Below, one piece after another: positions 30,548 to 52,193 of a DNA stretch of 56,457 bases (its first letter is position 1; each line of letters starts with the position of its first letter). The position numbers and the translations under genes were made by a program. This DNA is from Candidatus Omnitrophota bacterium. GTDB lineage: Bacteria > Omnitrophota > Gorgyraeia > Tantalellales > Tantalellaceae. The stretch spans positions 1-56,457 of the forward strand of contig JBDRBG010000030.1 in assembly GCA_043823005.1 (NCBI GenBank), written 5' to 3'. Below the pieces are notes generated by a model. The model was not told the origin of the DNA. It was given only the letters and a program-made list of their open reading frames with translations, and did not search any database.

Positions 30548-30591
30548 ATTTTATCTTTCTTGTGTCCGTTTTATTTGATTTTTTTTGTGTT

Positions 30592-32959: not shown

Positions 32960-35900
32960 ATGAAAAACCCTATAAATAAAAGAAAAATATGCCTAAAAGT
33001 TACTATTTTGACGGTAGTATGTCTTTTATATTTGCATACTATCGTTGGTGCATTGGCCCCGGAGGTGCGATCCGGTACTTTTAACTTCAAGACACGTTTC
33101 TTGAATGAAGCCAATTCTCGCCATTCTTTATCCCCGATCGTAGATACTGTTAGCGGAAGAAAAGATTCATCGATTGTAGCAAATTATAATGCATGGGATG
33201 GAATGATTATTTTTCAGGCAGATAAAGTATCTATTTTTCAGGAAAACGCATCTAAATTTTGCCCTGAGGACCCCGGAGCATTTATTTCAGCGTTGAGACA
33301 ATTTGTAAATACCGGAAAATTATCCCCAATGAGGGTTGATATAGATATTACAAATATTTGTAATAACAAATGTACGATGTGTTTTTCTGCGGATTTTCAA
33401 AAGAAACATCCAGTAATAATTCCAAAAAATAAAATGATAAAGATACTAGAAGATTTAAAGACAATCGGGGTTAAAAGTCTAAGGTTAACAGGTGGCGGAG
33501 ACCCCTTAACTCATCCAGACTTTATATGTTTCGTTGAAAATGCATATAAGCGAGGGTTTAAATTAACCTTAGAAACAAACGGAGATGGTTTGAACAATGG
33601 GATAATAGAAACCATAAGCCGATGCTTTACTCATGTAAGAGTAAGTGTAGATTCAGCTGTTGATAGCACTAGGCAACTAGTACATCAGCCCAAAAGAAAA
33701 GGTGCTACCTATGCAAGATTATTAGAAAACTTAAATAAAATAAAGGCTGAAAAAGAAAGAATAGGACGGCATAATGAATTGCTAATAGGTGCGACATTTT
33801 TGATCTTACCCGAAAATTATAGTGAAGTATATGCTTTCGCGGATGAAATGAAAAATGCAGGTGTGGATTGGATTGCTGTTAGAAAAACATTTAAGGAGGA
33901 TTACTATGACGAACATCCAGAGCATTTAGAGGAGGCGCTAACACAGATCAAAGAAGCCAGGGTTGTTCTTGAAAGTCCTGATTTCAAAATAGTTGGTCCT
34001 TATGGAGTTAGTCGCACCCCAAAAGAAGATTTCAAGGAATGTTTAATAGCAGGAACCAGGCTTGTGATTGTAGCAAATTCGCATATTTCGTTATGCTGTC
34101 TTTTGAGAAGCGGCGTTAATGTGGATGCGATCGATCTAGGGGAAATCGGGGAAGAAAACACACCTGTAATTAAATTGCTTGATGAGAAAAAAGAACAAAT
34201 AGGAGACTTTTTTAATAAAGCTCCCGCTTTTTGCAATGTATGCATTGATGTGGATTTCAATCACTTTTTAAACAGGATCAAGGATTTTCTGGAAGAATCC
34301 CAGGAGAATCTTTTTAGGAGAATGCAGGTATTCCCGCATAGTGGAAGTGAGATCTTAGTAGGAGAAAAAGGTTCGGAAGATGATATTGTTCCTGTATTTG
34401 TGCCCTATGAGCATTTTCGAAAATTCAATGATGGGGAAACGATTTCGTTCAATATGGACGAGATTGTCAGAACATCTAAAAAAATAGATCCGTTTTTAGC
34501 AAGAATAGCAAGGTTTTATCATTTGGAACGAATCTTAATAAGACAACAATCAGTTTCAAAAGAAGCAACACAATCAAAAAAAATATCAGAGCAGTATTCG
34601 GATCTGGACTTTTCTATTTTGAAAAGATTGAGCGAACAATATTTAAAGCCTACAACGCAAATATTAGTAAGCGGAAGCGTGGCTCGAAGACAATCTAACT
34701 TTTATTCTGATTTTGATCTATTTATTGTTGAGGAGACAAGTAATGATCCTGGGATAGGCCCTTTTTTGAGTGCGTTAAAGACTGTTACAGGAAAAGAAAT
34801 TCAAGATTATCATGCATTAAAAGAACAAATGCGGCATCTATATTTTAATTATCCATATGATCGTATGATGATAAATGATACAAGACCGCTTGATAGCACG
34901 AAGAGCTTGTCCGGAATACTCGGAATATCCAGAGAAGAGATTGAAACTAAAGATGCAGAGATTGCATTGTTTTTTTTAATAGGAAACGTTGTAGCGGAAA
35001 AGAAAAGTAAAGGAAAAAGGGATGAAGATATTGATATTAAGCACGATGCAGGGTTGTTTAAATATTTTTCTTTTTTTCTTGCCTCTTTGAACTACTTGTC
35101 AATTCCCCTTAAAAATGAAGACGAACAGTTTATAGAAGAACATTACAGGATTGTTTTGTCTTTCAGAGAAAAGGTGCAGCGTTTTTACGGGAAAGAGACC
35201 AGGATTGTGGGTGAGAAGTTTTTGGAAAATTCGGAAGATAAATTTATTGAGGAATTAAAAGCTTGCATGGAGAGCACGGTAAAATTAGTGAATTCATATG
35301 TGCCGCTAATATTTCAAAAATTGCAACAGAAGCTCCCTGGTCTTGCGGGAGAAGACCTTATGCAGATTTTAAACATAATTAAGGAAGGAAAAGAAGTAGA
35401 GTTTTCGGAAAATACGCCAGAAGCTGTATTAAGTATGTTGGCAGCGTTTTCAGAAAATGAGCTAATACAAATCAGATTGTATCAAATAGCAAGAAAGAAG
35501 TCATCTTGGTCGACATTATATTTTCTTGCACGCAATGAGAAGTGTCCATATGAAATAGTAGTCAAATTGGCTCAAATGGATGGTTATGTAAACAGGGATA
35601 TACGATATGAAGCAGCTAAAAATCCGAATGCGGATGAAAATGTCTGGAAAAAATTAATGACGGATATACATTTGCCGATAGCTAAATATTGCCGCAAAAA
35701 ACTCGGACGAGAGTTACCCCTTGTTAAAAGAAAAACTCTAGTGGTAGAAAGAGATAAGCCGGATCATTGGCAGCGGGAGATAATGAAAACATACAACATT
35801 GTTTTTAATATTATCGGGAAGGAATCAACAAATGAAACTATCCGGTCACAATTTGAAAAGGCTAAGATGAGGTTTGATGAATTTTGGGAGTCAAGCTCGG

Positions 35901-38551
35901 TGCACGAGTACAACGACGTTATGACTCGACTTTTTAGGATAACAAGCGAAATCGTAGAAGATCCATTTGTCGCGGCCAGGGAGCAATTAAATCAAATTGC
36001 AATTGAAATATATGAAAAAAATATCAAGAGTTTTAGCTATATGTCTTTACAGGAATTATTAGAAGCAAGCAGTTCGTTTAATCGCTTAGATGCATTCCTG
36101 AAAGATGATAAATCCGGCTTGAAAGATGCAGATGTGAGGGATTTGCTTGAAACTCAGATAGGCGCAGAGAGTGTTCCCGCGGCTGTAAAGATGCTGGAAG
36201 ATAGTGGAAGTATTGGAATCGTCTTGGATAATTATGGTGAACTTTTAATAGATTTAATGTTAACCGGCCAATTGCTCGCAAAAGGGAAGAATGTTAAGTT
36301 GTTCACTCGCAGTAGACCATTTATGATATCAGATGTAACATCATATGGGCTTTTGGGTTTTCTGGGAAGGATGGACAGAATCCTCGGGATGGAAAAGGTC
36401 TTATCGATCTTAAGGAAAAGTCATAAAAATGGAAAACTAAAGATCATCGCTACTGATGCCTTTTCAGATGGAGAGGAATTGTATTCTGAGGATAAAATGT
36501 CGGTGTTAAGGGAATTCGAAGATCTAGATGTAACGATAATAAAAGGAGATTGGAATTATAAAAGTGCCATTGGAATGAAAAATTGGCAGAGTGAAGATCC
36601 ACTGGAAGAGACAGATCTAAAATATTTTCCAACAGATGTAATAGTACTTAGAGTTGTGAAATCTCCGATTATAGTCGGAGAAAATACACCTAAAGATCCT
36701 GCTGAGTTATTTGGAAAATCTGAAATCAAGGTTTACTCGCAAAAGACCATAGAAGACAAGATCAGGTATATGCAGGAAAACAAAAGCGTTGAAAAAATGC
36801 TTAATGGTACTTTTGTTGTTAAAGATCATCATATTCATTTGGCTCCGACACGAGTTGAAACTTTCATGGAATTAGCTGAAAAAAATAGAAATATTATATT
36901 ATGGAATGATATTGAAAAAGAATGTGGTGTTGATATGAAAGATATCATTGATAGGGGAGATGTTGGCGAGTTAGAAACTGTATTACAAGTATCGAAAAAT
37001 AACGATCTTAAAGATTATCGAACAAAATATTCTATAGTGCAAAGAGCAATGGTAACAATGGACGATGTTGAGAGGGTGGCTTTTGAGATAGGGCAAGATT
37101 GCTACAGTAGCGGAGGGCAATATTGTGAAATCAGATTTGCAGCAGAAGATCCTAAAGTTATGATAGAGAAGATCCTTGCAAGTTATAATGGGCTCATGAA
37201 AGTGTCGGAGATGTACCCGAACTTTGAGTTTGGATTTTTGATAACACTTGAAAAGAGCTTAGATGAGGAAGATGCCGTAGCCATGATAGCTGAACTGGTC
37301 AGGTTTAAAATGGATACTAGCGTTTCTGAGGATATTCGTCGCCGCGTGGTGGGTGTAGATGCCGCAGGAAAAGAAAAGGGATTTAATGCGATGAAATTTA
37401 AGGGAGCTTTTGAAGCTGCCGGGAAATCGGGGCTTTTCGATGTTATCACTTCTCATGCAGGAGAGTCTTTCGGAAGCCTTGAGGAGGGGATACTTGCCAT
37501 AGAAGAGGCCATCGAGGTGTTGGGGGTTAATAGAATAGGGCATAGTATTGCCGCCGGAATTGACCCGGGAATCTTTTTGGGAAAAACAGATGAGTATGGT
37601 GAAGAATATGATGAAGAAAGGGTTATTAAATTATGGAAGATGCAGAATGGACTATTAAAAAAGATAAAGGAACGTGGAATATCTATCGAAATAAATATAT
37701 CAAGCAATCTTAAGACTGGAGCAGTATCAGATATTTCGGAACATCCAATTTCTGCTTTTCTTAAGGAAGGTATCTTGGTGTTAATGGGAACAGATGCACC
37801 CTTGGTGGCAAATATAGATATTTCCAAAGAAATTGATAAACTGCTCACCAGCATTAACTCTAATAGTAGATTAGAAGAAGTGGTATTTGCTAATGGAGAT
37901 GAAATAGAAGAGGCAACAAAAGAGGTAGTCCAAAGCGCTGCAGAAGTAAGGCATTATTTGTCTTTTCAGGAAATTGATCTATTGAACAATTCTCCACTTG
38001 TTGTTATAAAAAAAGATTTTATAGATCGACTATATAAGGAGACCCCTCTGGGAATATTGATGAATGATGGTTATAAAAAAACATTGCAAAAATTGAGAAA
38101 AATGCTGGGTCCGGACAACTTTATTGTTGCAGATGAAGATTTCAAGTTAGATGCGTTTATTGAGAAATCTGTCGCAGGAGGGCGAAAAATAATTATTTTA
38201 GATGATGGTGCTTTAAGTGAACGATATGCAAATACGGGAATAAAAGGAGAGCCGGGGAAGGATTATGTTTTCATGGTTCCCGGGACATCCCTTGATATTA
38301 GAAAAGATGCTGTGGAGTTTGTAGACATTACGGCTCTGGTATTGCTGGGGATCGGCATAATGGACGAAGATGACATGCTGTGTAGGATCGCATATAAAAA
38401 GTTTACAGGAGAAGAGATCACTAAAGAACTGCTATTATCTATACTGACAGGCAAATTAGAAACTATAAATATTTTGCCCAGGATTATAGCCATAAGCTCT
38501 GATGTTGATTGTAGTAGAAGTATGATGAGATTATTTGAGATAGCAGCTTAA
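32960..38551 (+). CDS. 1863-aa multi-enzyme fusion: signal/anchor, radical SAM, nucleotidyltransferase, helical repeats, DUF89 (ARMT1-like phosphatase), adenosine-deaminase-like amidohydrolase, and a C-terminal alpha/beta module
   Basis: N-terminal hydrophobic segment KVTILTVVCLLYLHTIVGALA. Radical SAM CxxxCxxC (CNNKCTMC, nt 33359-33382) with GGGDPL (33491-33508) and a downstream Cys-rich region (CC...C..C, to about 34280). Pol-beta NTase motif GS-x10-DFD (34673-34717). LRV/HEAT-like repeats at aa about 800-920. DUF89 motifs IVLDNYGELLIDL (DN at 36227), RPFMISDVT and KGDWNY (36542-36559). Amidohydrolase motifs HHIH (36827-36838), SHAGES (37451-37468), RIGHS (37532-) and TDAP (37790-37801). 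The C-terminal ~170 aa are unassigned. Confidence 0.8.
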   Translation: MKNPINKRKICLKVTILTVVCLLYLHTIVGALAPEVRSGTFNFKTRFLNEANSRHSLSPIVDTVSGRKDSSIVANYNAWDGMIIFQADKVSIFQENASKFCPEDPGAFISALRQFVNTGKLSPMRVDIDITNICNNKCTMCFSADFQKKHPVIIPKNKMIKILEDLKTIGVKSLRLTGGGDPLTHPDFICFVENAYKRGFKLTLETNGDGLNNGIIETISRCFTHVRVSVDSAVDSTRQLVHQPKRKGATYARLLENLNKIKAEKERIGRHNELLIGATFLILPENYSEVYAFADEMKNAGVDWIAVRKTFKEDYYDEHPEHLEEALTQIKEARVVLESPDFKIVGPYGVSRTPKEDFKECLIAGTRLVIVANSHISLCCLLRSGVNVDAIDLGEIGEENTPVIKLLDEKKEQIGDFFNKAPAFCNVCIDVDFNHFLNRIKDFLEESQENLFRRMQVFPHSGSEILVGEKGSEDDIVPVFVPYEHFRKFNDGETISFNMDEIVRTSKKIDPFLARIARFYHLERILIRQQSVSKEATQSKKISEQYSDLDFSILKRLSEQYLKPTTQILVSGSVARRQSNFYSDFDLFIVEETSNDPGIGPFLSALKTVTGKEIQDYHALKEQMRHLYFNYPYDRMMINDTRPLDSTKSLSGILGISREEIETKDAEIALFFLIGNVVAEKKSKGKRDEDIDIKHDAGLFKYFSFFLASLNYLSIPLKNEDEQFIEEHYRIVLSFREKVQRFYGKETRIVGEKFLENSEDKFIEELKACMESTVKLVNSYVPLIFQKLQQKLPGLAGEDLMQILNIIKEGKEVEFSENTPEAVLSMLAAFSENELIQIRLYQIARKKSSWSTLYFLARNEKCPYEIVVKLAQMDGYVNRDIRYEAAKNPNADENVWKKLMTDIHLPIAKYCRKKLGRELPLVKRKTLVVERDKPDHWQREIMKTYNIVFNIIGKESTNETIRSQFEKAKMRFDEFWESSSVHEYNDVMTRLFRITSEIVEDPFVAAREQLNQIAIEIYEKNIKSFSYMSLQELLEASSSFNRLDAFLKDDKSGLKDADVRDLLETQIGAESVPAAVKMLEDSGSIGIVLDNYGELLIDLMLTGQLLAKGKNVKLFTRSRPFMISDVTSYGLLGFLGRMDRILGMEKVLSILRKSHKNGKLKIIATDAFSDGEELYSEDKMSVLREFEDLDVTIIKGDWNYKSAIGMKNWQSEDPLEETDLKYFPTDVIVLRVVKSPIIVGENTPKDPAELFGKSEIKVYSQKTIEDKIRYMQENKSVEKMLNGTFVVKDHHIHLAPTRVETFMELAEKNRNIILWNDIEKECGVDMKDIIDRGDVGELETVLQVSKNNDLKDYRTKYSIVQRAMVTMDDVERVAFEIGQDCYSSGGQYCEIRFAAEDPKVMIEKILASYNGLMKVSEMYPNFEFGFLITLEKSLDEEDAVAMIAELVRFKMDTSVSEDIRRRVVGVDAAGKEKGFNAMKFKGAFEAAGKSGLFDVITSHAGESFGSLEEGILAIEEAIEVLGVNRIGHSIAAGIDPGIFLGKTDEYGEEYDEERVIKLWKMQNGLLKKIKERGISIEINISSNLKTGAVSDISEHPISAFLKEGILVLMGTDAPLVANIDISKEIDKLLTSINSNSRLEEVVFANGDEIEEATKEVVQSAAEVRHYLSFQEIDLLNNSPLVVIKKDFIDRLYKETPLGILMNDGYKKTLQKLRKMLGPDNFIVADEDFKLDAFIEKSVAGGRKIIILDDGALSERYANTGIKGEPGKDYVFMVPGTSLDIRKDAVEFVDITALVLLGIGIMDEDDMLCRIAYKKFTGEEITKELLLSILTGKLETINILPRIIAISSDVDCSRSMMRLFEIAA

Positions 38552-38574
38552 TAAAAATGAGAAACTGATCGATA

Positions 38575-41500
38575 ATGAAGAATTGGAAAAAATTTGGACT
38601 TTTGACGAAAAGTATAGCTATAAGCGTTATATGCTTATTGCTTTTTAATGATGCATTGATTGCAGAGGGCTTCAGGAAAGGCAAAAAAACTCTGCAGCCG
38701 CCTACTATTTTTACTGTACCGGATGAAAAGGACACATTTTTTATTGCGATAAGTGGATATTTAGGATTTTATCTTGTTGATATCGAGAATGAACCTGAAA
38801 ACTGCAATGTGTTACGGATGAGAAATAGGGTAAGAGCGGCGGTAAAAGATATACAGGCAGTAAAAGGCATACCGGACAAAGTGAAAAACAAAATCCCCAA
38901 AATATCATATGATCAAGATGGATTCGTACTAGTGATCGATTTCGATGAGTTTACGGTGCGATATTTTAATCACAATCTTGCAGATTCAGAGATCTTTTGG
39001 GAACCCGGGCAAGAAGCGAATTATTATGTATCAGAAACGTGTAAAGGGAAATACCTGACAAGACAGATTATTACCCAAAGATCTTTGCTTTCATCGGGAA
39101 AACCAGTAGGTGAAACAGGAAAAGGATCTTCAGCATTAGGAGCAACCTCGATAGCCGGGGATGAAGCTTCAGAGGTATTGAATCTCTCTAGCCTGACTCA
39201 AGGATTGTTTGAATTTGATCTTCGCGCTGTGGAGATCGCGTTGAGTTATTTTAAACCCAATGTTGATATCGATCAGCTTGAAAATCAATTGATGAAGGTT
39301 GAAGGGGTTAGCCTTATACGATGGGTAGATAATGTCTTAACAATTGTCGGAAATAGTGAAATTGTTAAGTTTCATTTAAAAAGTGATGAGATCAATGAGC
39401 GGCTTGGATTAAAGGACAGATTATACATTATGGACGCAGACTTGGAGCAGGATATAACAGTCAAGATATATGCCAGGGATGAGCGTGATGATAAAAGGGG
39501 TATTGGGCCCGTATATATTCTCGGAGTAGTGCGCACTAGCCATGATTCGGGAGCTGTTTTGATAAAAGATGGTGTTGTAATAGGTGCGATTGAAGAAGAA
39601 AGATTGGATATGAATAAACATACACGTGCATATTTTCCAATCTTGGCGACAAGGTATTTATTGGAGGAACAAGGTGTAAAATGGGAACAAGTAAATCATA
39701 TCGCGACCACGTATGATTATAACTGGTTTAGAGATACCCCACACAGTAGAGCTCCTCGTGATCATTTTCACGAAAGATTTGGCTTGCCGGAACTTGCAGA
39801 TGACAAGAAATTATATAATACTGATACGTTGCAAACATTTTTGGAAAGATTAGCTGAGACTTATGGATCTGAATATGTACCCCCGGTTACATTTGTAAAA
39901 CATCACAAAACACATGCTGCAGCCGCGTGGCATACCAGTGGTTTTCCTGAACCTACACTTGCGGTTACTATTGACGGACGTGGCGAAGATGAAGCGACTA
40001 CTGTGTGGCTATGTGCTGAAGGAAAGATGAAAAAAATAAGCTCTGAATCATATATACACTCTCTAGGACATCTTTATTACATAGTTACAAAATATATCGG
40101 ATATAGGAGCCATGATGAGGGGAAAGTAATGGGCTTTGCGCCGTATGGCGCCGCGCGAAATTATGAAGAGGAAGAAAGGGTAGATAAGCTAAGGTTATTA
40201 ATGGATGAGGCTGTTAGCTTTGATACAACAACAGGTCATATACAGCTCGATCAGGATTGTTTTAACTTTTTTACTTTAGAAAACTTCCCTGGAATGGACT
40301 TTTCAGATGGATTTTTAAAAAGGCTTGAAGCGGTTGTGCCGAAGTATCCCAAAAGCATGGCGGGAACAGAACTCGATCCTGATAGAGAAGAACATCGTCC
40401 GTATGCGAATCTTGCGTACGTTCTTCAAGAAAAAGTCGAGGAAAGCATGATCCGTATGCTCGAATATTATTTACAGGAATACCCTGAAACCAAAGGGGTT
40501 AAGCATGTAGTTATGGGAGGCGGATTATCCTTAAATATTGCAGCAAATGGAAAGGTCATTGAATCGGGTGTTGTTGATGCCGATAAGTTCTTTGTCCCGG
40601 CTTTCCCTGCTGATGACGGCACAGCAGTCGGTGCAGCTTTGTCAGTAGCAGAGGAAGAATATGACCTAAATGCCAGAAATATTGTTGCTAAAATATCTCT
40701 AGGGAAGACTTATTCCGATGAGGAGATAAGTTTAACATTGGATAGATATGGTTTGGTTGAAGGAGAAGATTATTTCGCTATGCGGGATGATGTCGCGCTT
40801 GTTGAAACCGTAGCTGAAACTTTAGAAAATAATAGAACAGTAGCCTGGTATCAGGGGGGTGCTGAATTGGGACCCAGAGCTTTAGGAAATAGAAGTATTT
40901 TACACAGATTAGATGATCCTGAAGGGAACCTTAAAGTTAATGAAATAAAGAATCGCGAATACTGGAGGCCATCAGCTTTGTCAATTCAGCAGGAAAGAGC
41001 ATCTGAGTTTCTTGAAGGAATTGCAGTCTCACCATTTATGACTATAGGCTTTAAAGTTAAAGATGAAAAGAGAGACATCATAAGGGCCGGTGTACATTCA
41101 GCCGATGGGACAACTCGTCCACAAACTGTATTCCGTGAAGCAAATCCTATCTATTGGGCCTTGTTGGGGGAAATGGATAAAAGAACCGGTATTCCAGGAG
41201 TTTTAAATACATCTTTTAATAGAAGGGGGCCAATTATAGAAACGCCTGAAGATGCTCTTAACACTCTATATTATGGTCATGGAATCGATCAATTAGCGAT
41301 CGGACATTTTATTGTGAATAGGACCCAGCGCTTGCAGCCGAGTATCTTGAATTTGCAAGATGAACCGACTTTAAGAAAACAATATAAAGATATCATGGAT
41401 GATAATTATGATGTAAGCAAATGGCAACAATTTTCAAGAGATCTAAATCATCTGGTTGAATCACGAGGAGCAGCTCACCAGCATTTTCTGACTGTAAGTT

Positions 41501-42567
41501 CACTTGGTTCAGCCGGTAAAATAGATGTATTAAAAATTCCACTTTGTAAAGAAATGTTCCAAAGAGGCTCGCGTGAAAAAATGATTCCGGAGATGGCTGC
41601 ATACATTCATGAGAGAATAGGTCGCAAAACAAATGCAAATATTGTGATAAGTTCAACTTCTCACGAATATGAGGATGTGGTCATTAGCTTGTTTGAACGA
41701 TTTACTCCACTGGAAATTGTCAGGAATTGGCGAATCATGAAGGGTGATCCAAATGGAGACCTGTCTTGGGGAAATAGGGGAAGAGCACATGGAACCGACA
41801 AGGGAAAATTGTTGATAGTAGCAGGTCTTGATCCTGAAACCCAAAGAGTACAGCCGGAGATAATGATAATCGACAATGCTGAAGTGAAGACATTGTGGGG
41901 AAAAGATAGAATTATTAAAAACGCACAAGAAAAGATAATTCCTCAGCTCGTGCAGACTTTGATCGCTGCTTCGGAAAATATCGCGAAAAAAACACCAAAC
42001 CAAAAAGCTGCAATTTTGATTGACACTGAACTAGCTGAAGTTGGTTTTAGGGATGTTAAAAAAGAAATTGAGAAAATGATTAAACTTCTTGCAAATATTG
42101 AAGGGAATAATGAATATCTTCGTAGTTTCTTGAAAAACCTTGAGATCGTAGTTGGAAAGGGGAAGGATCTTATAAAGAAAAAAGGTAAGGTTAAAGATGA
42201 AAATGTAATAGTTGTAACAACAAAAGAAAATATGCAATATTTTGATGAAGCTTTATACGGAAAAGCCGTAATAGCGGCGATTGACAGAAAAGATTTTCCC
42301 AAAACCGCATATTTACCTTTATTAGAGGTGACATTATTTGCGATCGGAAAATATTTAGGGTGGAATGAGAATAAGATCAAACAACATTACATGAATATTC
42401 CAAATACCATTCCTCTTGAAATGATGGAAAGCGCAAATATTAATGATTTATTCGATGCTAACAAAAGAACTTTTATTATAAAACTGATTCCGAATGCAAT
42501 TGCCTTTGAGAAAAATGAATTAGTTGAGATGATGATGAATATAAGAAAAAGTCTAAGAAATGCATGA
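38575..42567 (+). CDS. 1330-aa NodU/CmcH/TobZ-family carbamoyltransferase flanked by large unknown N- and C-terminal regions
   Basis: Signal-like N-terminus SIAISVICLLLFNDALIA. The carbamoyltransferase core spans aa about 313-917 (nt about 39511-41325). Its motifs are YILGVVRTSHDSGAVLIKDGVVIGAIEEERLDMNKHT, HHKTHAAAA (39901-), VVMGGGLSLNIAANG, FPADDGTAVGAALS, GPRALGNRSIL (40870-), HSADGTTRPQTV and VLNTSFNRRGPIIETPEDAL. It starts 23 nt after the previous stop, on the same strand. Confidence 0.85.
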   Translation: MKNWKKFGLLTKSIAISVICLLLFNDALIAEGFRKGKKTLQPPTIFTVPDEKDTFFIAISGYLGFYLVDIENEPENCNVLRMRNRVRAAVKDIQAVKGIPDKVKNKIPKISYDQDGFVLVIDFDEFTVRYFNHNLADSEIFWEPGQEANYYVSETCKGKYLTRQIITQRSLLSSGKPVGETGKGSSALGATSIAGDEASEVLNLSSLTQGLFEFDLRAVEIALSYFKPNVDIDQLENQLMKVEGVSLIRWVDNVLTIVGNSEIVKFHLKSDEINERLGLKDRLYIMDADLEQDITVKIYARDERDDKRGIGPVYILGVVRTSHDSGAVLIKDGVVIGAIEEERLDMNKHTRAYFPILATRYLLEEQGVKWEQVNHIATTYDYNWFRDTPHSRAPRDHFHERFGLPELADDKKLYNTDTLQTFLERLAETYGSEYVPPVTFVKHHKTHAAAAWHTSGFPEPTLAVTIDGRGEDEATTVWLCAEGKMKKISSESYIHSLGHLYYIVTKYIGYRSHDEGKVMGFAPYGAARNYEEEERVDKLRLLMDEAVSFDTTTGHIQLDQDCFNFFTLENFPGMDFSDGFLKRLEAVVPKYPKSMAGTELDPDREEHRPYANLAYVLQEKVEESMIRMLEYYLQEYPETKGVKHVVMGGGLSLNIAANGKVIESGVVDADKFFVPAFPADDGTAVGAALSVAEEEYDLNARNIVAKISLGKTYSDEEISLTLDRYGLVEGEDYFAMRDDVALVETVAETLENNRTVAWYQGGAELGPRALGNRSILHRLDDPEGNLKVNEIKNREYWRPSALSIQQERASEFLEGIAVSPFMTIGFKVKDEKRDIIRAGVHSADGTTRPQTVFREANPIYWALLGEMDKRTGIPGVLNTSFNRRGPIIETPEDALNTLYYGHGIDQLAIGHFIVNRTQRLQPSILNLQDEPTLRKQYKDIMDDNYDVSKWQQFSRDLNHLVESRGAAHQHFLTVSSLGSAGKIDVLKIPLCKEMFQRGSREKMIPEMAAYIHERIGRKTNANIVISSTSHEYEDVVISLFERFTPLEIVRNWRIMKGDPNGDLSWGNRGRAHGTDKGKLLIVAGLDPETQRVQPEIMIIDNAEVKTLWGKDRIIKNAQEKIIPQLVQTLIAASENIAKKTPNQKAAILIDTELAEVGFRDVKKEIEKMIKLLANIEGNNEYLRSFLKNLEIVVGKGKDLIKKKGKVKDENVIVVTTKENMQYFDEALYGKAVIAAIDRKDFPKTAYLPLLEVTLFAIGKYLGWNENKIKQHYMNIPNTIPLEMMESANINDLFDANKRTFIIKLIPNAIAFEKNELVEMMMNIRKSLRNA

Positions 42568-43234: not shown

Positions 43235-43282
43235 ACCAGAAGTATACTCTAAAAAAACAAACAAATCAATTAGTTTTAAGTG

Positions 43283-43311
43283 TTGACATTTGTGGTTTCT
43301 TGATATATAAT
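43283..43311 (+). promoter_or_regulatory. Perfect-consensus sigma70 promoter driving xis-int
   Basis: TTGACA (43283-43288), an exact 17-nt spacer, then TATAAT (43306-43311). It lies in the 160-bp divergent region between XRE and xis. TTAGTT(T)TAA repeats at 43270 and 43329 flank it. Confidence 0.7.
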
Positions 43312-43394
43312 ACTAACAAGATAGTTAGTTAGTTTAATGTAGCGGTTTGAGCCAAGAAATTTTAAAGAGACGAATAAAAAGAGGAGGGTTTTCG

Positions 43395-44676: not shown

Positions 44677-44686
44677 TCAAAAATCA

Positions 44687-46480: not shown

Positions 46481-49400
46481 ATGCGGAAAAATATAGAAAT
46501 CATGTTTTTTATAAAACAAACATACAAACAAATAAAAAAGAGAATTCGTAGAATCCTTGTTTTTATTTTTATAGGGATTCTTGCAATGGCAGGCGTGCCT
46601 TTGCCTGTTGCTCATTCTGGTGGGTATGAGCCGCTTGGAGTTTATCAGGATCTTTTTTTTGAGGTTCAGGATAATCTTTTTACCTTACCGGAATCTTTAG
46701 GATATGTGCAGGATGTTTTTCTGGGAACAAAAGACAGGTTTGTGATACATATTCAGGATGCGCATAGTAATTATTATGCGCAAAAAACCATAACTGAGAT
46801 TATCCGGTATTTTAAGGAAAAATACGGAGTCAGTTTGATTTGTCTGGAAGGAGGAAGCGGAGAATATGACCTGGAGCCTTTTGAAAATATACAGGATGAT
46901 GCGATACGATCTATTGCGGCGGATTTTTTTCTGAACCAGGGCAGATTAAACGCCGCTGAATTCATGAAAATAAAAGAGCCCAAAGGCTTTGTTCTGGCAG
47001 GCATTGAGGACGCGGCACTTTATAAAGAGAACTTAAATATTTATAAAGAAAATATAAAACACAAACATAGTGTCAATTCTTTTCTGGAGAACACATCCCG
47101 CGTTATGACAAGTCTTAAAAAGCAGATTTATTCAAGCAATCTTGTGGAGATGGACAAACAATATATGATGTATAAAAATGGAGAGATATCCTTTAAAACA
47201 TATCTTTCTTATCTGATAGAACAAGCCGGATTCAAGGGGCTAAACATCAAAAATCTTTCTAATCTATATTTAATTCAGCAAATATTTGACGTGGAAAACC
47301 AAATTGATTTTAAAAAAGCAAATAAAGAAAGAGACGCGTTTATAGAAAGACTCAGACAAAATCTGGCACGCAATAAAATACAGGAACTTGTTCAAAAAAT
47401 AACGGAGTATAAAACGGGCATAATAAAGCAGGGAAAATTTTATGATTATCTTCTTGAAACCGGAGAAAAATCAGGAATTGCTATTTCAAAATATCCGATT
47501 TTTCAAAAATATATCATATATGTATCGTTATATTCCGCGATAGATAAGTCTCGAGTTTTCAAGGAATTGAACCAGTTAGAGGATCTTATCCGGGAAGAGC
47601 TCTGTTCCGGTGAGATTCAACGAAAACTTATGGTTTTCAGTAAAAGGTTTACTTTAATTGAAAAGGCCTTTGATTTTACTCTGACAAAAGATGATTACGA
47701 TCATCTTTTGTTACAATGTTTCGATAGTTTTCCGATAACTGAAATGACATCTTTTTTAGCAAAACAAGCTTCTTTTTATGGTACAAGAAGCGGCTTGCCG
47801 AAAAATAGCTTTGAGCTGGATGAGAGACTAAAACAAATAAGCGGGTTTTATGTCTGTTCTTTCAGGCGAGATGAAATTTTTACGCGCAATACCCTCGAGC
47901 AAATAAAAACAACGGGATTTAATGACGCAATACTTATTACCGGCGGATTTCATTCTGAAAACCTTACGCGTTTGATGAGAGAAAAAGATGTTTCTTACAT
48001 TTCTATAATGCCGCAGTTTAAAAATGCGGCCGGATATACATGCCCTTATTTTGATCTTCTTAGCGGCAGAGATTCATTTATGGAAAAATTTATATTGGAT
48101 ACAGTTGCTTCTTCCGGCCTTCAGATCGCCAGCATATGGAACCGGCTGGGGATGGAACTCGCGGGAGAAAAAGAAAAAAATCTGGCGATGATACAGCTTG
48201 AAATAGTTAAAACTCTTGAAACGGAACCGGAAGCTTTTCTTGCGATAAAAGGATCGGAAATTGCCATAAGTTTTCATAAGGACCCGGCCGGAAATATTGA
48301 TTATAAGCTGGTACGGGCACAAGAAGATAAAATAGCCGATGTTTTGATAACAAACGCTGATGATCTTAGCTATGACGATCATGAGAAAATAATAGATGAA
48401 CAGATCGTTATGGCAAGAGATAGAGGAGATGTTAACTTGTTTGATCCGGAAAAAGAAATTGGACAAAAAATGGTTTCTTTTCTTAAGGCAGTAGAGGAAA
48501 GGGGCGGTTTTAGCGGGATAGCTGAAGCTGTTGAAAACAAAAAAATAAATATTTATGAAGTGAAAGGGGCGAAAGGTTTCAGAGGACATGCCAGCTGGCG
48601 GGGTATCTACATAAACGCGGAGATCCCTGCTAAAGAACAGACTGCTGTTCTTGTTCATGAAATCGGTGCTTATTATAGACAAACGCATAAACAAAATATA
48701 GAACTTGAAAAACTGTATAAGAAGTACGATCTATCTGAGGCTGTTCTCGAAACTGCTGACATTACAAAGTTTGGCGCATTGAAAGAACAGAACGAATTAA
48801 AAGGACCGGGATATGTTCCCGGACGGGATTATGCTAACGCTGATATAGAATATGGGGAGCGAAACTTAAATGTAGATTTTTTGTCCAAGAGAGAAGCAGA
48901 AGGCACTGGCAAAAAATGGCTAAATGTGATTTCTTCTCAATCGGGAAAAATAGGGAACAAGATGATCCGTATTATTCAAAAGAGAAGCCGGAATATACCC
49001 TTTTTTAATGCGGAAGCATTTGGGGCATTTATCGAGAGCTGGGATATCCTGACCATAGAGGATAATTTTTATACTGCCGGGTTTGTTGACGCTGAGCAAG
49101 ACGAGTACGGAAGGAGAAAACTTTATTTGACAGAGACTCTGCATAATGCGTTAACCCTGGTTCCCGAGGCCGTTCCTTTTATTATTCTTAGTGAAGTTTC
49201 TCGTTCAGAAAGAGAGAACAAGCATACTCAAGCCATTCTTAAACAACTGATAAGCGGTACGGACATAACAAGCCCCGGTATTTTTATGCGCGGATTATCA
49301 GGGATAAAAAAACAGGCCATAAAACAAGCTTTTGAACAAACAGGCGCGGATTTAACCAAATTGATCAATCTGGCAGAGAAGATAGGCAAAGAAAAGTTTT

Positions 49401-49906
49401 CAGAACAGGAAAAAAAGCTTATCCGGATTAACCAAAATAACCTTAGGGTAGGTGATGAGCCCGCCAGTGCTGTGATATTAGGATATGGACTTATTAATCA
49501 GCTTTTTGCCGGATATGATGATATCGGATTGATGAATGTAATGCGGAATATGGACGGTTCACATCAATCTAAAACGGAAATTGCGGAAGCTATGTTAAAA
49601 ATAAAACCGCGTTTATGGGTATGTTTTGCCGATGTTATGGCAGGCCGCGCCAGAGAAAAATCTATGGGAAGTAAGATCATGGATATTCTTTCTCCTGAGG
49701 CTACTGATATGGCAGTAAATTTTGCCAGAGAACGCGGCATTTTTGCTTATGGTTTTGAAAAAGATGAGCATGCTTTTGTGTTTCCTGATTATTACATAGC
49801 GGATGATATTAAACAGTTTTTTCTGGACATGGCAGAAGAAATGGAAAAAGGGTCAGCGTATGAACTGTATGCGCTGGGAAAAGGATCAAAAGAAAATGCC
49901 GGATGA
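46481..49906 (+). CDS. 1141-aa protein of unknown function with an N-terminal signal/anchor
   Basis: Hydrophobic ILVFIFIGILAMAGVPLPVAHS. The N-terminal ~520 aa carry VIHIQDAHSNYYAQ...SLICLEGG and AILITGGFHSENL. These weakly recall the paired GxxH/E motifs of the TIKI/TraB/ChaN/erythromycin-esterase superfamily, which I have not verified. The rest has no motif I recognise. Confidence 0.6.
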   Translation: MRKNIEIMFFIKQTYKQIKKRIRRILVFIFIGILAMAGVPLPVAHSGGYEPLGVYQDLFFEVQDNLFTLPESLGYVQDVFLGTKDRFVIHIQDAHSNYYAQKTITEIIRYFKEKYGVSLICLEGGSGEYDLEPFENIQDDAIRSIAADFFLNQGRLNAAEFMKIKEPKGFVLAGIEDAALYKENLNIYKENIKHKHSVNSFLENTSRVMTSLKKQIYSSNLVEMDKQYMMYKNGEISFKTYLSYLIEQAGFKGLNIKNLSNLYLIQQIFDVENQIDFKKANKERDAFIERLRQNLARNKIQELVQKITEYKTGIIKQGKFYDYLLETGEKSGIAISKYPIFQKYIIYVSLYSAIDKSRVFKELNQLEDLIREELCSGEIQRKLMVFSKRFTLIEKAFDFTLTKDDYDHLLLQCFDSFPITEMTSFLAKQASFYGTRSGLPKNSFELDERLKQISGFYVCSFRRDEIFTRNTLEQIKTTGFNDAILITGGFHSENLTRLMREKDVSYISIMPQFKNAAGYTCPYFDLLSGRDSFMEKFILDTVASSGLQIASIWNRLGMELAGEKEKNLAMIQLEIVKTLETEPEAFLAIKGSEIAISFHKDPAGNIDYKLVRAQEDKIADVLITNADDLSYDDHEKIIDEQIVMARDRGDVNLFDPEKEIGQKMVSFLKAVEERGGFSGIAEAVENKKINIYEVKGAKGFRGHASWRGIYINAEIPAKEQTAVLVHEIGAYYRQTHKQNIELEKLYKKYDLSEAVLETADITKFGALKEQNELKGPGYVPGRDYANADIEYGERNLNVDFLSKREAEGTGKKWLNVISSQSGKIGNKMIRIIQKRSRNIPFFNAEAFGAFIESWDILTIEDNFYTAGFVDAEQDEYGRRKLYLTETLHNALTLVPEAVPFIILSEVSRSERENKHTQAILKQLISGTDITSPGIFMRGLSGIKKQAIKQAFEQTGADLTKLINLAEKIGKEKFSEQEKKLIRINQNNLRVGDEPASAVILGYGLINQLFAGYDDIGLMNVMRNMDGSHQSKTEIAEAMLKIKPRLWVCFADVMAGRAREKSMGSKIMDILSPEATDMAVNFARERGIFAYGFEKDEHAFVFPDYYIADDIKQFFLDMAEEMEKGSAYELYALGKGSKENAG

Positions 49907-52193
49907 AATATCGGATGAAATTCGAAAAGAATCGGATTCAGGGTTGAAGTTTGCGGCAGAACAAAAACATATTTTGATTCCCGTGAAATACACAGGAAGC
50001 CTGAGAGCAGTTCTTGAAAAATATAGTCCGATAAAAAAAGATATAAGCCCCTTTTTCTTGCCTGCCGGAGGGGTAAGGCAGATAAAGGATATACCTGTCG
50101 GATTCGCGTATATGCTAAGAGAAGCGGAGAAAAGAGCCGGCCAGAAATGGAGAGAAAGAGAAATAAGATGGATATCAGAAAATGATCCCGCTAAAGAGCA
50201 AAAGATATGGGGAGGTTTTACTGATAAGCAGAAAAGAATAATCAAACAATCTGCATGGGAAAAGCTTAGCATCGAGGAACAGTGTGACTATGTTACCGCG
50301 GATAATATTTCTGAGGGAAAAGCTTTTTTGCTCGGAATGCCGGGACTGAATAAAAATATAGTTATGCTGGAAGAGATAAGTCCTGATAAGGTTTCAGTTG
50401 TAGCAAGTCCGGTCAGAGTAAATGTTCTTAAATATGAAGGTTCGTTTGAAGAAACGCAAACACAAAATAGCAATAAAATTCGAGCAAACATAGAGCGGTT
50501 TTTCAAGAGAAGCTTAAAGGGAAAAAGGAAAATATATACACAGGAGATACGCGATGATTATACAGTTTATAATTTTTATATATTTGAGGATCTTTTAAAA
50601 GAGATATTTTCTCTTATTCCGGAAGAAATAAAGATCCTTTCCCCGGAACAAAGGGTCTTTATGATCCGCGGGCCGCCTACTGATTTTTATATAGTAATTG
50701 TAAATGAGGATGCTACGGTAAAAATATTGAATATTGACAGTATGTTTCATGCTGAAAATTTGCCGCAGGAGTTAAGGGAAAAAGTAAGGACAGAGTTGAA
50801 GGAAGGGCTGGGAGGGCGGGATACGGATTATATTGTATTTAACATGAAAGACAAAAGCAAACTAAAGAAATTAATCAAACTTGATCCTACGGAAAATGAA
50901 CTAAGCAAAATTTTACGCGAAAAAGGAGCAAGGGTATTTCCTTTTAAAGCAGGCAATTCATATGCCGCGCATGATATTGTTGATAACTATATTCTTGCGG
51001 CCAGCATAGAAATATACAAAGCTTTTCTGGATGAGGCCAAAAAATCAAGCGGCATAGATGCTGAAGGTATAAAAAGAGCAGTTAGAACAGCAGGAGAAAA
51101 GATCAACAGTGCTATAGATGAACAAAAATTCAAAAAAGTAACTGTTTCCCGGGAAAACCCGAATGGTAAAGAACCGATCGCTGTTATGCTGCAGGCGCAT
51201 GTTGTCAGTCAAAAAATTGATAATATAAGAGACGCGGAAAACAAAGCTGCGCAAAGTATAAGATCTCTTGAAGCTATGAGCTCGGTGCGAAGTTCGCTGG
51301 TAATATTGGCTGACGGAGAGATAGTAGGAGATTACGCGGGTTGTGTCAGGACATATATTCCGGAAAACGGAGAGCAATATAAAAAGGCGTATTCTGCGAT
51401 GGAGGGATATGCGAGGTTAGCCAGCGAAACAGAACTAGAAATAAAGAACGGTTTATTTAAAGAAGAAGCCCTGAAATTAAGATCCGAATTAAAAAATAAA
51501 AAAGCTCAAAAAAAGGTTGAGGAAATATACTCGTTGTCAGGCGGGGTAATAAGTAATCTTGCTAACGCGCAATCTCCGCTTGTTGTAGCGCTTCCGTGTT
51601 CGTTTACAGCGCTTGACGATAAGGCTTATATAGCGCAAAAAGTACGGCGCCAATTAGAGGAGAAATACGGTACCAAAAATATACATGTTATTTCCTATGA
51701 AAACAAAGATGATCTGGCAAAGAAAAAAAGTCAGATACAAAATATCCTGAATCTTAATGAAAAAGCGGCCGCGGTTATTTTTTGTGATTCAAGATCCGGG
51801 ATTCATCCTGAAGGTAATATGCAAAAGGATATATTTAAAGATTTGTGTGCGCCTGATACGGGCGAAGCCAAGGTCTATTATGTAAACGAAGATTATAAAG
51901 AGAGCCGGAGTGTGGAGCCTTTGATAGGTCCGCATGTGGCCCTTGCTATGGGAATAAAACAGGTAAAAGCAGGGCAAGGAAATCCGGAACTGATTGCCGC
52001 TATGTCAAGATTGATCGTGGAGCTTAGCGGGAATGACAGTAATATAATAGATAAGTTAAGTACGGTTCAGGGGTTTAACGATTTTCTTAAAGCTCTGCTT
52101 AACGGACAAATGCTTCTTCCGATTCAAAGAATAGACCTGGACGAGATAAGGGATAGGATAAGAGCCGAGGAAAAAGCTCTTATATCGTTATAA
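49896..52193 (+). CDS. 765-aa protein of unknown function, translationally coupled to the previous gene
   Basis: The in-frame ATG at 49896 is preceded by AAGGA and overlaps the upstream TGA (ATGCCGGATGA). The ORF-track start at 49803 would create a 104-nt overlap. The last ~200 aa resemble the C-termini of both island enzymes. Confidence 0.6.
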   Translation: MPDEISDEIRKESDSGLKFAAEQKHILIPVKYTGSLRAVLEKYSPIKKDISPFFLPAGGVRQIKDIPVGFAYMLREAEKRAGQKWREREIRWISENDPAKEQKIWGGFTDKQKRIIKQSAWEKLSIEEQCDYVTADNISEGKAFLLGMPGLNKNIVMLEEISPDKVSVVASPVRVNVLKYEGSFEETQTQNSNKIRANIERFFKRSLKGKRKIYTQEIRDDYTVYNFYIFEDLLKEIFSLIPEEIKILSPEQRVFMIRGPPTDFYIVIVNEDATVKILNIDSMFHAENLPQELREKVRTELKEGLGGRDTDYIVFNMKDKSKLKKLIKLDPTENELSKILREKGARVFPFKAGNSYAAHDIVDNYILAASIEIYKAFLDEAKKSSGIDAEGIKRAVRTAGEKINSAIDEQKFKKVTVSRENPNGKEPIAVMLQAHVVSQKIDNIRDAENKAAQSIRSLEAMSSVRSSLVILADGEIVGDYAGCVRTYIPENGEQYKKAYSAMEGYARLASETELEIKNGLFKEEALKLRSELKNKKAQKKVEEIYSLSGGVISNLANAQSPLVVALPCSFTALDDKAYIAQKVRRQLEEKYGTKNIHVISYENKDDLAKKKSQIQNILNLNEKAAAVIFCDSRSGIHPEGNMQKDIFKDLCAPDTGEAKVYYVNEDYKESRSVEPLIGPHVALAMGIKQVKAGQGNPELIAAMSRLIVELSGNDSNIIDKLSTVQGFNDFLKALLNGQMLLPIQRIDLDEIRDRIRAEEKALISL

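What the first reader, a model, noticed from the sequence alone, without database searches (positions are those of the whole stretch)
38045..38548. Shared ~170-200-aa C-terminal alpha/beta module on three otherwise unrelated giant proteins (two on the island, one off it)
Hand alignment of three C-termini shows the same order of elements. The three are the rSAM fusion (nt 38045-38548), the carbamoyltransferase (nt about 42007-42564) and the 765-aa unknown protein (nt about 51570-52190).

| Element | rSAM fusion | Carbamoyltransferase | 765-aa protein |
|---|---|---|---|
| Strand 1 | GILMND | AILIDT | VVALPC |
| Basic helix | KKTLQKLRKMLG | VKKEIEKMIKLL | IAQKVRRQLEEKYG |
| Strand 2 | NFIVAD | LEIVVGK | NIHVISY |
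| Strand 3 | KIIILDD | NVIVVTT | AAVIFCD |
| Strand 4 | YVFMVPG | AVIAAID | KVYYVNE |
| Next segment | VEFVDITALVLLGIGI | YLPLLEVTLFAIGKYL | VEPLIGPHVALAMGIK |
| Near-terminal hhP.I motif | INILPRIIAIS | IKLIPNAIAFE | MLLPIQRIDLD |

A final amphipathic helix follows in each. A common module on different catalytic bodies could be a docking, oligomerisation, regulatory or export-recognition domain. It would link the island enzymes functionally to the 46481-52193 gene pair.
Basis: inference. Interest (0 to 1): 0.7.

Follow-up and report, generated by a model that had tools for sequence, protein, structure and literature searches.

The report
Portable C-terminal end-domain on Omnitrophota enzymes
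Three large proteins in this window each end in an uncatalogued ~200-residue alpha/beta domain that also ends many other enzyme fusions and giant proteins, all Omnitrophota where a source is named, usually with a matching N-terminal leader, so it looks like an address or assembly tag, not a by-eye artefact.

Summary
The hand alignment itself is not above chance (BLASTP, shuffled Smith-Waterman, direct hhalign), and one element is mis-assigned.

The underlying idea holds at family level. An exhaustive HMMER search gave each tail its own family: R 46, C 89 and P 15 of the 150 listed hits. In almost every hit the protein ends exactly where the window tail ends. Host proteins range from about 80 to 4986 aa. 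All 8 named members are Omnitrophota.

Bodies carrying the tails include PFK, enolase, GDH, GcvT/P, FBPase+transaldolase+aldolase, amylase, kinases and GNATs.

- **Leaders:** each tail type pairs with its own N-terminal leader after a signal-peptide-like segment (81 matched, 0 mismatched).
- **R and C:** homologous through bridge sequences. One tail hits R at E 9e-23 and C at 3.6e-6, in register.
- **P:** linked only weakly by sequence (P 0.002). Its AlphaFold2 model (pLDDT 89) has the same element order as the R model (pLDDT 88).
- **Databases:** no Pfam, NCBIfam or PDB match for the tails.
- **Gene pair:** the "765-aa protein" is the C-terminal half of a split P-type gene.

Function is inferred to be a sorting, docking or assembly module.

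The parts
37904..38548 (+). R-type tail: last 215 aa of the 1863-aa radical-SAM / ARMT1-like / adenosine-deaminase fusion. It is a linker helix plus an alpha/beta core and ends ...MRLFEIAA.
   Evidence: 46 homologous tails, all ending at the protein C-terminus. AlphaFold2 pLDDT 88.4, pTM 0.87. No Pfam or NCBIfam hit. No PDB sequence or fold match.
41920..42564 (+). C-type tail: last 215 aa of the 1330-aa carbamoyltransferase protein, ending ...IRKSLRNA.
   Evidence: 89 homologous tails, about 85 of them ending at the same position. Family consensus. No Pfam or NCBIfam hit. No structure model was obtained; a crude secondary-structure estimate gives the same element order.
51486..52190 (+).
   Evidence: 15 homologous tails, 14 ending at the same position. 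43% identity to the L001 orthologue against 32% for the whole protein. AlphaFold2 pLDDT 89.4, pTM 0.90. No PDB match.
38575..39096 (+). N-terminal hydrophobic signal-like segment (aa 1-32) plus C-type leader of the carbamoyltransferase protein (TLQPPTIF ... IENEPENCN ... VRYFNHN).
   Evidence: A leave-one-out C-leader HMM hits residues 35-176 at E 5e-39. Consensus.
46481..47032 (+). N-terminal hydrophobic signal-like segment plus P-type leader of the 1141-aa ORF (LPESLGYVQD ... VIHIQDAHSNYYAQK ... LICLEGG).
   Evidence: A leave-one-out P-leader HMM hits residues 54-186 at E 7e-59. The tail of the same type sits on the next ORF.
32960..33058 (+). N-terminal hydrophobic signal-like segment of the rSAM fusion. 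There is no canonical R-type leader behind it.
   Evidence: Hydropathy maximum 2.27 within the first 60 residues. The leave-one-out R-leader HMM gives no hit on this protein.
49803..49906 (+). Overlap and frame change between the 1141-aa and 796-aa ORFs. Together they equal one P-type gene.
   Evidence: One 2094-aa ORF in L001, and 1700-2200 aa in most P-family members. A-runs lie at the junction.
32960..42567 (+). The two adjacent tail-bearing genes: the R-type rSAM fusion (32960-38551) and the C-type carbamoyltransferase (38575-42567).
   Evidence: ORFs, Pfam bodies. Tandem arrays of tail-bearing genes recur in other contigs.

Best explanation
**What it is.** Each of the three proteins ends in a member of an uncatalogued superfamily of ~190-215-residue alpha/beta domains that must sit at the very C-terminus. 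All members with a named source are Omnitrophota. The window holds three sequence types:
- R on the radical-SAM fusion;
- C on the carbamoyltransferase;
- P on the split 46481-52193 gene.

**Shown.**
- Every type occurs on many unrelated bodies.
- Every type ends with its own conserved last residues.
- Every type pairs only with its own N-terminal leader, which follows a hydrophobic signal-peptide-like segment. The window's rSAM fusion is an exception: it lacks the R leader.
- R and C are homologous.

**Probable.** P belongs to the same superfamily. The evidence is the same predicted element order as R and a weak in-register profile link.

**Inferred mechanism.** The hydrophobic N-terminus takes the protein to or through the cytoplasmic membrane. 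The folded tail, together with its matching leader, then acts as an address or docking/assembly module. It would route or fix very different cargo (single enzymes, multi-enzyme fusions, giant proteins) to a common destination, with the free C-terminus part of what is recognised. It is most likely not a catalytic domain.
For: **Families and position.** Exhaustive phmmer against 1.84 billion cluster representatives gave 185 hits at E <= 1e-3. The 150 listed split into 46 R, 89 C and 15 P. The offset between the protein end and the query end is 0 in 46/46 R, about 85/89 C and 14/15 P hits. Conserved ends are LFxVAA, IRxxLxKA and AEExALxSL.

**Bodies.**
- R: PFK, AlaDH, GDH, Fe-ADH, GDH+GcvT+GcvP, HAD, GNAT, FBPase+transaldolase+aldolase.
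- C: enolase, amylase, methyltransferase, GNAT+LMW-PTP, kinase, TPR.
- P: metallophosphatase, and (by eye) kinase-like bodies. A divergent P-type tail also sits on a 3476-aa cNMP-binding giant in L092.
- Sources.

**Leaders.** Leader and tail types pair as C/C 49, R/R 20 and P/P 12, with none mismatched. Leave-one-out HMMs confirm the C and P leaders in the window.

**R-C homology.**
- The tail of L091:18635-22957 hits the R profile at E 9e-23 and the C profile at E 3.6e-6, over 41-214 against 36-215. Its score of 41.6 compares with 16.3 +/- 3.0 in block-shuffles.
- Bridge B2 hits R at 5.9e-5 and C at 1.1e-3.

**P link.**
- The B1 profile is C-related (E 2.9e-8) and hits P at P 0.002, in register, above all 40 shuffles.
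- The AlphaFold2 models of R and P are both confident and share one element order.
- Their DSSP states agree at 70% of 172 columns of a sequence-only alignment. The shifted null is 0.35 +/- 0.06.

**Databases and taxonomy.** No Pfam, NCBIfam or PDB relative. All 8 members with an organism name are Omnitrophota.

**Gene arrangement.** Tail-bearing genes often lie in tandem.
Against: - Direct R-P and C-P profile comparisons are at chance: 9 and 8 of 40 shuffles reach the observed score.
- No 3-D superposition of the models was possible, and no model of the C tail was obtained.
- A beta-alpha-beta element order is common among alpha/beta domains.
- The window's R-type protein lacks the R leader, and 35 of the 116 family members of at least 450 aa have no recognised leader. 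Several of these are visibly N-terminally truncated.
- Signal peptides were judged by hydropathy and by eye only.
- The cargo is cytoplasm-type. It includes a radical SAM enzyme with an intact CxxxCxxC motif and ATP-dependent enzymes, which fits export poorly.
- Each type conserves polar residues at strand ends (VLDDG, IDD, FCD..IHP). These could mark a ligand site.
- Neighbourhoods show no recurrent partner gene.
- Function was not tested at all.
Confidence: 0.45

Rival explanations
1. The P-type tail (and in the strict version all three) is an unrelated alpha/beta domain. The resemblance is then the generic beta-alpha-beta pattern of three-layer sandwiches, plus composition, in a low-GC genome.
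For: No pairwise similarity. Direct hhalign for C-P and R-P is at chance. Iterated HMM searches on the sequences at hand never merge the families. Foldseek finds only generic alpha/beta folds for both models at TM <= 0.39.
Against: For R-C this is excluded by a bridge tail significant against both profiles, in register. For P:
- the same 13-element order and spacing as R, with 70% state agreement against a 35% null;
- an in-register hit to the C-related B1 profile, above all shuffles;
- the same strict C-terminal position;
- the same leader-cargo-tail architecture in Omnitrophota proteins;
- tandem placement next to a C-type gene in L092.
Confidence: 0.2
2. The tails are oligomerisation or scaffold domains. 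They would hold membrane-tethered enzymes together as a metabolon on the cytoplasmic face, with the N-terminal hydrophobic segment an uncleaved anchor rather than an export signal.
For: The cargo is overwhelmingly cytoplasm-type central metabolism, often several pathway steps in one protein or in tandem genes. Radical SAM chemistry and ATP-dependent enzymes need cytoplasmic conditions (established knowledge). A 2026 preprint finds TM-only, cytoplasm-facing topologies for about half of the long Omnitrophota proteins (10.64898/2026.06.07.730766).
Against: - By eye, N-termini show K/R-rich starts, one hydrophobic stretch and AxA-like sites such as VVWA|NP and TFA|E. That predicts N-in/C-out or cleavage (the positive-inside rule is established knowledge).
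- It does not explain why the exact C-terminal residues are conserved.
- It does not explain why leader type and tail type never mix.
Confidence: 0.2
3. The tail is a ligand-binding regulatory or catalytic alpha/beta domain, such as a nucleotide or metabolite sensor, that controls the attached enzymes.
For: Family-specific conserved polar residues sit at the C-terminal ends of strands, where Rossmann-like and flavodoxin-like folds bind ligands: R VLDDG, GExYC, NLNAM; C LALD, IDD, IPN; P FCD..IHP, YYVNE, GPH.
Against: - The conserved polar residues differ between the types, so there is no shared site.
- The same tail sits on functionally unrelated bodies, including TPR proteins and 4-5 kaa giants without a detectable enzyme domain.
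- A regulatory domain need not be strictly C-terminal or pair with an N-terminal leader.
- No match to any known ligand-binding family.
Confidence: 0.12

Closest known systems
Type IX secretion C-terminal domain (CTD) cargo architecture of Bacteroidota
   Same: An N-terminal signal-like segment plus a conserved folded domain at the extreme C-terminus. It sits on very diverse cargo, including giant proteins, and comes in more than one CTD type.
   Different: The T9SS CTD is a ~70-100-residue Ig-like beta-sandwich (PMC11285876, abstract listed). Here the domain is a ~190-215-residue alpha/beta fold. There is no Pfam hit on any of the four window proteins and no type-matched N-terminal leader in T9SS cargo. 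The phylum differs, and no T9SS genes appear among the larger window ORFs scanned with Pfam.
Dockerin modules of cellulosomal enzymes
   Same: A portable terminal module that docks many different enzymes, each with an N-terminal signal peptide, onto a common scaffold. Dockerin-like repeats are reported in Omnitrophota giants (10.1101/2023.11.21.568195).
   Different: By established knowledge, dockerins are ~70-residue duplicated Ca-binding loop-helix motifs. There is no Pfam dockerin hit, the predicted fold is alpha/beta, no cohesin-like partner was identified, and the cargo is central metabolism rather than CAZymes.
Paired N- and C-terminal sorting signals of Gram-positive surface proteins (YSIRK-type signal peptide with LPXTG sorting signal)
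   Same: Both ends of the protein are constant while the middle varies freely.
   Different: LPXTG signals are short motifs followed by a TM helix and are cut by sortase (established knowledge). Here the C-terminal element is a soluble folded domain with no TM segment, and the leader is a 100-150-residue region.
Flavodoxin-like / Rossmann-like three-layer alpha/beta sandwiches (for example lumazine synthase and the 2-oxoacid dehydrogenase E1 ThDP-binding domains)
   Same: These are the best, though non-significant, Foldseek neighbours of both models. Both have a parallel beta-alpha-beta order.
   Different: Best E is 0.02-0.04 and TM <= 0.39. There are three helices and a strand or hairpin after strand 4, and no sequence relation.

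Membership tests
T9SS C-terminal domain (Por_Secre_tail type) | Located at the extreme C-terminus of cargo that carries an N-terminal signal peptide | tested here: met
   End offset 0 in nearly all hits. Hydrophobic signal-like N-termini in most full-length members (judged by hydropathy and by eye).
T9SS C-terminal domain (Por_Secre_tail type) | Compact Ig-like beta-sandwich of about 70-100 residues | tested here: not met
   The AlphaFold2 models are alpha/beta with 7-8 helices and span 215 and 235 modelled residues. No Pfam hit on the tails.
T9SS C-terminal domain (Por_Secre_tail type) | Host genome encodes the T9SS core (PorK/L/M/N, Sov) | not testable with these tools
   Only a 56-kb contig is available. 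It encodes a T2SS/T4P-like cluster instead.
Dockerin | Duplicated Ca-binding loop-helix motif (Pfam Dockerin_1) | tested here: not met
   No Pfam hit at E <= 0.1 on the window proteins. The predicted fold is alpha/beta.
Known alpha/beta fold families in the PDB (flavodoxin-like, periplasmic-binding-protein-like, lumazine synthase, ThDP-binding) | Significant structural match (Foldseek E < 1e-3 or TM > 0.5) | tested here: not met
   R model: best E 0.036, TM <= 0.38. P model: best E 0.02, TM <= 0.39.
   Direct comparison gives only P 0.01, though 0 of 40 shuffles reach it. The bridge tail L091:18635-22957 hits R at 9e-23 and C at 3.6e-6 in register, with z about 8 against shuffles. Bridge B2 hits R at 5.9e-5 and C at 1.1e-3.
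   Direct comparisons are at chance. The best indirect link is the B1 profile (C-related, E 2.9e-8) against P at P 0.002, in register, above 40/40 shuffles.
   The R and P models share element order and 70% of DSSP states over a sequence-only alignment. No coordinates could be superposed and there is no model of C. The crude estimate for C has Q3 of about 0.63 on the two known cases.
Leader-cargo-tail architecture seen in the Omnitrophota family members (defined here) | Tail of type X pairs with leader of type X behind a hydrophobic N-terminus | tested here: met
   Met for the carbamoyltransferase (C leader, E 5e-39) and for the 1141-aa + 796-aa pair (P leader, E 7e-59). Not met for the rSAM fusion, which has the hydrophobic N-terminus and R tail but no R leader. 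Family-wide: 81 matched, 0 mismatched.

The most novel reading that the evidence does not exclude
Leader and tail of one type are a lock-and-key pair. After export, the short conserved stretch right after the signal-like segment (TLQPxTlF in C, DTLAPYs in R) or the leader domain binds the tail of the same type. That tail may belong to another molecule, giving head-to-tail chains or arrays, or the pair may engage a type-specific receptor of the neighbouring T2SS/T4P-like machine.

This would give Omnitrophota a phylum-wide protein-sorting code. The code would place glycolytic, amino-acid-catabolic and radical-SAM enzymes outside the cytoplasm, on the cell surface or in prey or host cells.
Probability: 0.15. 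Interest if true: 0.9.

Novelty: new variant of a known kind. Interest (0 to 1): 0.7.

Why it matters
Omnitrophota are uncultured, ultra-small, probably host- or prey-dependent bacteria known for giant multi-enzyme proteins. Where those proteins go, and how they are exported, is an open question (10.1101/2023.11.21.568195; 10.64898/2026.06.07.730766).

A recognisable, type-coded pair of end modules would give a handle on that question. The pair occurs on at least 185 protein clusters, from about 80-aa contig fragments and 500-aa single enzymes to 5000-aa giants.
- It defines a cargo set that can be counted per genome.
- It predicts binding partners.
- It sharpens the puzzle of why cytoplasm-type enzymes such as PFK, enolase, glycine-cleavage proteins and radical SAM enzymes carry export-like N-termini.

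It also adds at least three domain families, and several more types seen in neighbouring genes, with confident predicted folds and no relative in Pfam, NCBIfam or the PDB.

Tried and rejected
**Searches that found nothing useful**
- Word-indexed homologue searches: the rSAM tail gave no hit, the 796-aa protein found only itself, and the alignment A1 gave no hit.
- Genome and metagenome scans with the carbamoyltransferase C-terminal 414 aa gave none.
- A viral-contig scan with the rSAM tail gave none.
The scan with a narrower alignment gave only 2 short loci.
- Sequence searches of the PDB with the single tail and with profiles gave nothing below E 0.05.

**Attempts to model the C tail**
- I tried to fold the C and P tails in one AlphaFold2 job.
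- MAFFT always laid the P rows onto the C block, even with extended rows or 12 copies of the query.
- So the C tail has no model.

**Analyses that added nothing**
- hhalign secondary-structure scoring had no effect.
- Adding single bridge sequences to family profiles barely changed the direct scores.
- Iterated hmmsearch on the local sequence set did not merge families.
- The giant ORF at 27-9509 was checked for a tail and has none. It ends in a TM helix and an acidic tail.
- The L009 protein has a P-type leader, but its C-terminus matches none of the types.

**Literature**
- Four Omnitrophota papers were searched for such a module and none mentions one.


Full report
**1. What is at the coordinates**

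The window is a whole 56,457-bp contig. Three ORFs are concerned.
- A 1863-aa protein at 32960-38551. It has Radical_SAM at residues 130-290 with CNNKCTMC, ARMT1-like at 988-1242 and adenosine deaminase at 1334-1626.
- A 1330-aa protein at 38575-42567, with carbamoyltransferase N and C domains at 315-916.
- A 796-aa ORF at 49803-52193 with no Pfam hit.

In each, the last ~200 residues have no Pfam or NCBIfam match.

**2. Is the hand alignment more than chance? No.**

- BLASTP and phmmer find no similarity between the tails.
- Local and global alignment scores lie within 500 shuffles, apart from a marginal C-P global z of 2.55.

Judged by the evidence in sections 3 and 5, two details are wrong.
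- 'Strand 1' of the rSAM protein (GILMND) lies in a helix. The real first strand is SPLVVIKK, which resembles SPLVVALP in the third protein.
- The near-terminal proline is not conserved in the third protein's family.

**3. Each tail is nevertheless a real, portable, strictly C-terminal domain**

I ran one exhaustive phmmer job with the three tails joined, against 1.84 billion cluster representatives. It returned 185 proteins at E <= 1e-3. No hit matches more than one tail.

The 150 listed hits split as follows.

| Type | Window protein | Listed hits | Hits ending exactly where the window tail ends |
|---|---|---|---|
| R | rSAM fusion | 46 | 46 of 46 |
| C | carbamoyltransferase | 89 | about 85 of 89 |
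| P | 796-aa ORF | 15 | 14 of 15 |

Host proteins range from about 80 to 4986 aa. The last residues are conserved per type..LFxVAA..IRxxLxKA and ..AEExALxSL.

The bodies in front of the tails are unrelated to each other.
- R: phosphofructokinase (twice), alanine dehydrogenase, glutamate dehydrogenase, Fe-ADH, GDH+GcvT+GcvP in one 2750-aa protein, FBPase+transaldolase+aldolase in one 2877-aa protein, HAD, GNAT.
- C: enolase, alpha-amylase, methyltransferase, GNAT+LMW-phosphatase+HATPase, protein kinase, TPR.
- P: metallophosphatase. By eye, three members also carry a kinase-like body. A divergent P-type tail sits on a 3476-aa cNMP-binding giant in L092 (section 4).

All 8 members that carry an organism name are Candidatus Omnitrophota. 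The closest genome by YchF (74% identity) is filed as 'uncultured Planctomycetia'.

**4. Are the three types related to each other?**

Direct profile-profile comparison is not significant. hhalign gives R-C 4.1% (P 0.01), C-P 0.6% and R-P 0.5%. Against 40 block-shuffled profiles, R-C exceeds all of them. C-P and R-P are reached by 8 and 9 shuffles.

With a permissive threshold they run in register to the C-terminus.

Neighbouring genes on other contigs supplied bridge sequences.
- The tail of a 1431-aa GDH protein (L091:18635-22957) matches the R profile at E 9e-23 and the C profile at E 3.6e-6, over 41-214 against 36-215. Its score of 41.6 compares with 16.3 +/- 3.0 for shuffles.
- The tail of an 1811-aa protein (B2, L083:4331-9793) matches R at 5.9e-5 and C at 1.1e-3.
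- A further type, B1, sits on two PGM-containing giants. It matches C at E 2.9e-8, P at P 0.002 (133-215 against 125-215, above 40/40 shuffles) and R at P 0.0015.
- A divergent P-type tail (E 7e-10) ends a 3476-aa cNMP-binding giant that lies next to a C-type gene.

I conclude that R and C are homologous. P is linked by sequence only weakly.

**5. Structure**

| Model | Alignment depth | pLDDT | pTM |
|---|---|---|---|
| R tail | 24 sequences | 88.4 | 0.87 |
| P tail | 14 sequences | 89.4 | 0.90 |

Both models show the same order of elements: a long linker helix, b1, a1 (~20 residues), b2, a2, b3, a short a3, b4, three helices, a strand or hairpin, and a terminal helix. The R model has one extra short strand after b4.

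Over the sequence-only hhalign alignment, 70% of 172 columns have the same DSSP state. The null from shifted alignments is 0.35 +/- 0.06, with a maximum of 0.50.

Neither model has a significant PDB neighbour. The best E values are 0.02-0.04 and TM <= 0.39. Both lists contain 2-oxoacid dehydrogenase E1 domains and lumazine synthase, which are generic three-layer alpha/beta folds.

I could not superpose the two models, and I have no model of the C tail. A crude propensity estimate, with Q3 of 0.63-0.64 on R and P, gives the same order for C.

**6. A second constant element: type-matched leaders**

Most full-length family members start with a K/R-rich stretch, one hydrophobic segment and, by eye, an AxA-like site. 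A conserved region specific to the tail type follows.
- R: ..DTLAPYs..QLi.E..
- C: ..vvWA.Pd....TLQp.TlFt....kiE.dp.N.N....IRYFNP..
- P: ..FeLPe.LGyVQD...VIHIQDAHCDYYAQK...LiCLEGG..

Among hits of at least 450 aa the pairing is C/C 49, R/R 20, P/P 12 and mismatched 0. A further 35 have no recognised leader, and several of these are visibly N-terminally truncated.

Leave-one-out HMMs find the C leader in the window's carbamoyltransferase (E 5e-39) and the P leader in the 1141-aa ORF at 46481-49906 (E 7e-59). They do not find an R leader in the rSAM fusion.

The 1141-aa and 796-aa ORFs are therefore the two halves of one P-type gene. They form a single 2094-aa ORF in L001 and 1700-2200-aa proteins in most of the family. 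In the window they overlap in different frames at an A-rich junction.

**7. Context**

Tail-bearing genes often stand in tandem.
- Window: R then C.
- L083: B1, B2, R.
- L091: B1, R, R/C bridge.
- L092: P-like, C.
- L088: R, R.
- L084: C, C.

Otherwise the neighbours are housekeeping genes and no partner gene recurs. In the window a T2SS/T4P-like cluster lies just upstream of the two genes. An HTH gene, an integrase and tRNA-Glu lie just downstream.

**8. How it most likely works (inference)**

Four properties point to an address, docking or assembly module rather than an enzyme.
- A folded domain that must be last in the chain.
- Type-specific conserved terminal residues.
- Freedom to sit on any cargo.
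- Strict pairing with a leader of the same type behind an export-like N-terminus.

The nearest analogies are T9SS C-terminal domains, dockerins and the paired YSIRK/LPXTG signals. The fold, size and paired leader differ from all of them, so membership in those families fails.

The main difficulty is the cargo. Radical SAM enzymes, ATP-dependent kinases and glycolytic enzymes are not expected outside the cytoplasm. The same puzzle is noted for Omnitrophota giant proteins in a 2026 preprint. This keeps two rivals open: a cytoplasmic membrane-tethered scaffold and a regulatory domain.

**9. Novelty**

Four Omnitrophota papers do not describe such a module. Pfam, NCBIfam and the PDB have no model or relative.

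I file it as a new variant of a known kind, a conserved terminal module on diverse cargo. There is a smaller chance that it is a new leader-tail sorting or polymerisation code.

**10. Verdict**

The by-eye alignment was not statistically valid, but it pointed at a real and interesting feature.

Noticed in passing
window 49803-49906 (ORFs 46481-49906 and 49803-52193): The two ORFs overlap by about 100 nt in different frames. They correspond to one continuous 1700-2200-aa gene in relatives. The junction lies in A-runs (gggaaaaggatcaaaagaaaatg). It could be an indel error, a genuine frameshift, or a real split with an ATG at about 49896 overlapping the TGA at 49904.
   Followed up: partly
window 32960-42567; L081, L083, L084, L088, L091: Cytoplasm-type enzymes carry Sec-like hydrophobic N-termini. 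Examples are a radical SAM enzyme with intact CxxxCxxC, PFK, enolase, PGK+PGM, GcvT/P, GDH and FBPase+transaldolase+aldolase. Several pathway steps are fused in one protein or encoded in tandem giant genes. Where these enzymes work is unexplained.
   Followed up: partly
L083:2-4327, L083:4331-9793, L091:2-9835: Two further C-terminal tail types (B1, B2) sit on giant proteins next to R-type genes. They are not captured by the R, C or P models at normal thresholds, so the superfamily probably has more types than the three in this window.
   Followed up: partly
window 46634-47032; L009:1286-9892: The P-type leader holds a near-invariant VIHIQDAHCDYYAQK...LICLEGG motif with no Pfam or NCBIfam model. 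It also heads a 2869-aa protein in a MAG labelled Elusimicrobiota, whose C-terminus matches none of the tail types.
   Followed up: partly
window 27-9509: A giant ORF of at least 3160 aa reaches to within 26 nt of the contig start. Its only hits are a Big_5 domain and an apolipoprotein-like stretch. It ends in a TM helix and an acidic tail, not in an R, C or P tail.
   Followed up: partly
window 16993-31416: A T2SS/T4P-like cluster lies directly upstream of the two tail-bearing genes. It holds a GspE/PilB ATPase, a GspF/PilC platform protein, a PilM-PilN fusion, TPR proteins, a secretin and an ExeA-like AAA protein. Such clusters are reported next to Omnitrophota giant genes (10.1101/2023.11.21.568195).
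   Followed up: no
window 42755-44829: An HTH_3 regulator (minus strand), a tyrosine integrase and tRNA-Glu(CTC) follow the carbamoyltransferase gene, which is consistent with an integrated element. L001 and L002 share only the ROK and YchF genes with the window (L001 also the P-type gene), so the element's borders could not be set.
   Followed up: partly
window 11148-16540: F-type ATP synthase genes (a b/delta-like fusion, alpha, gamma, beta) sit between a Peptidase_MA gene and the secretion cluster. The 245-aa ORF matches both ATP-synt_B and OSCP models.
   Followed up: no
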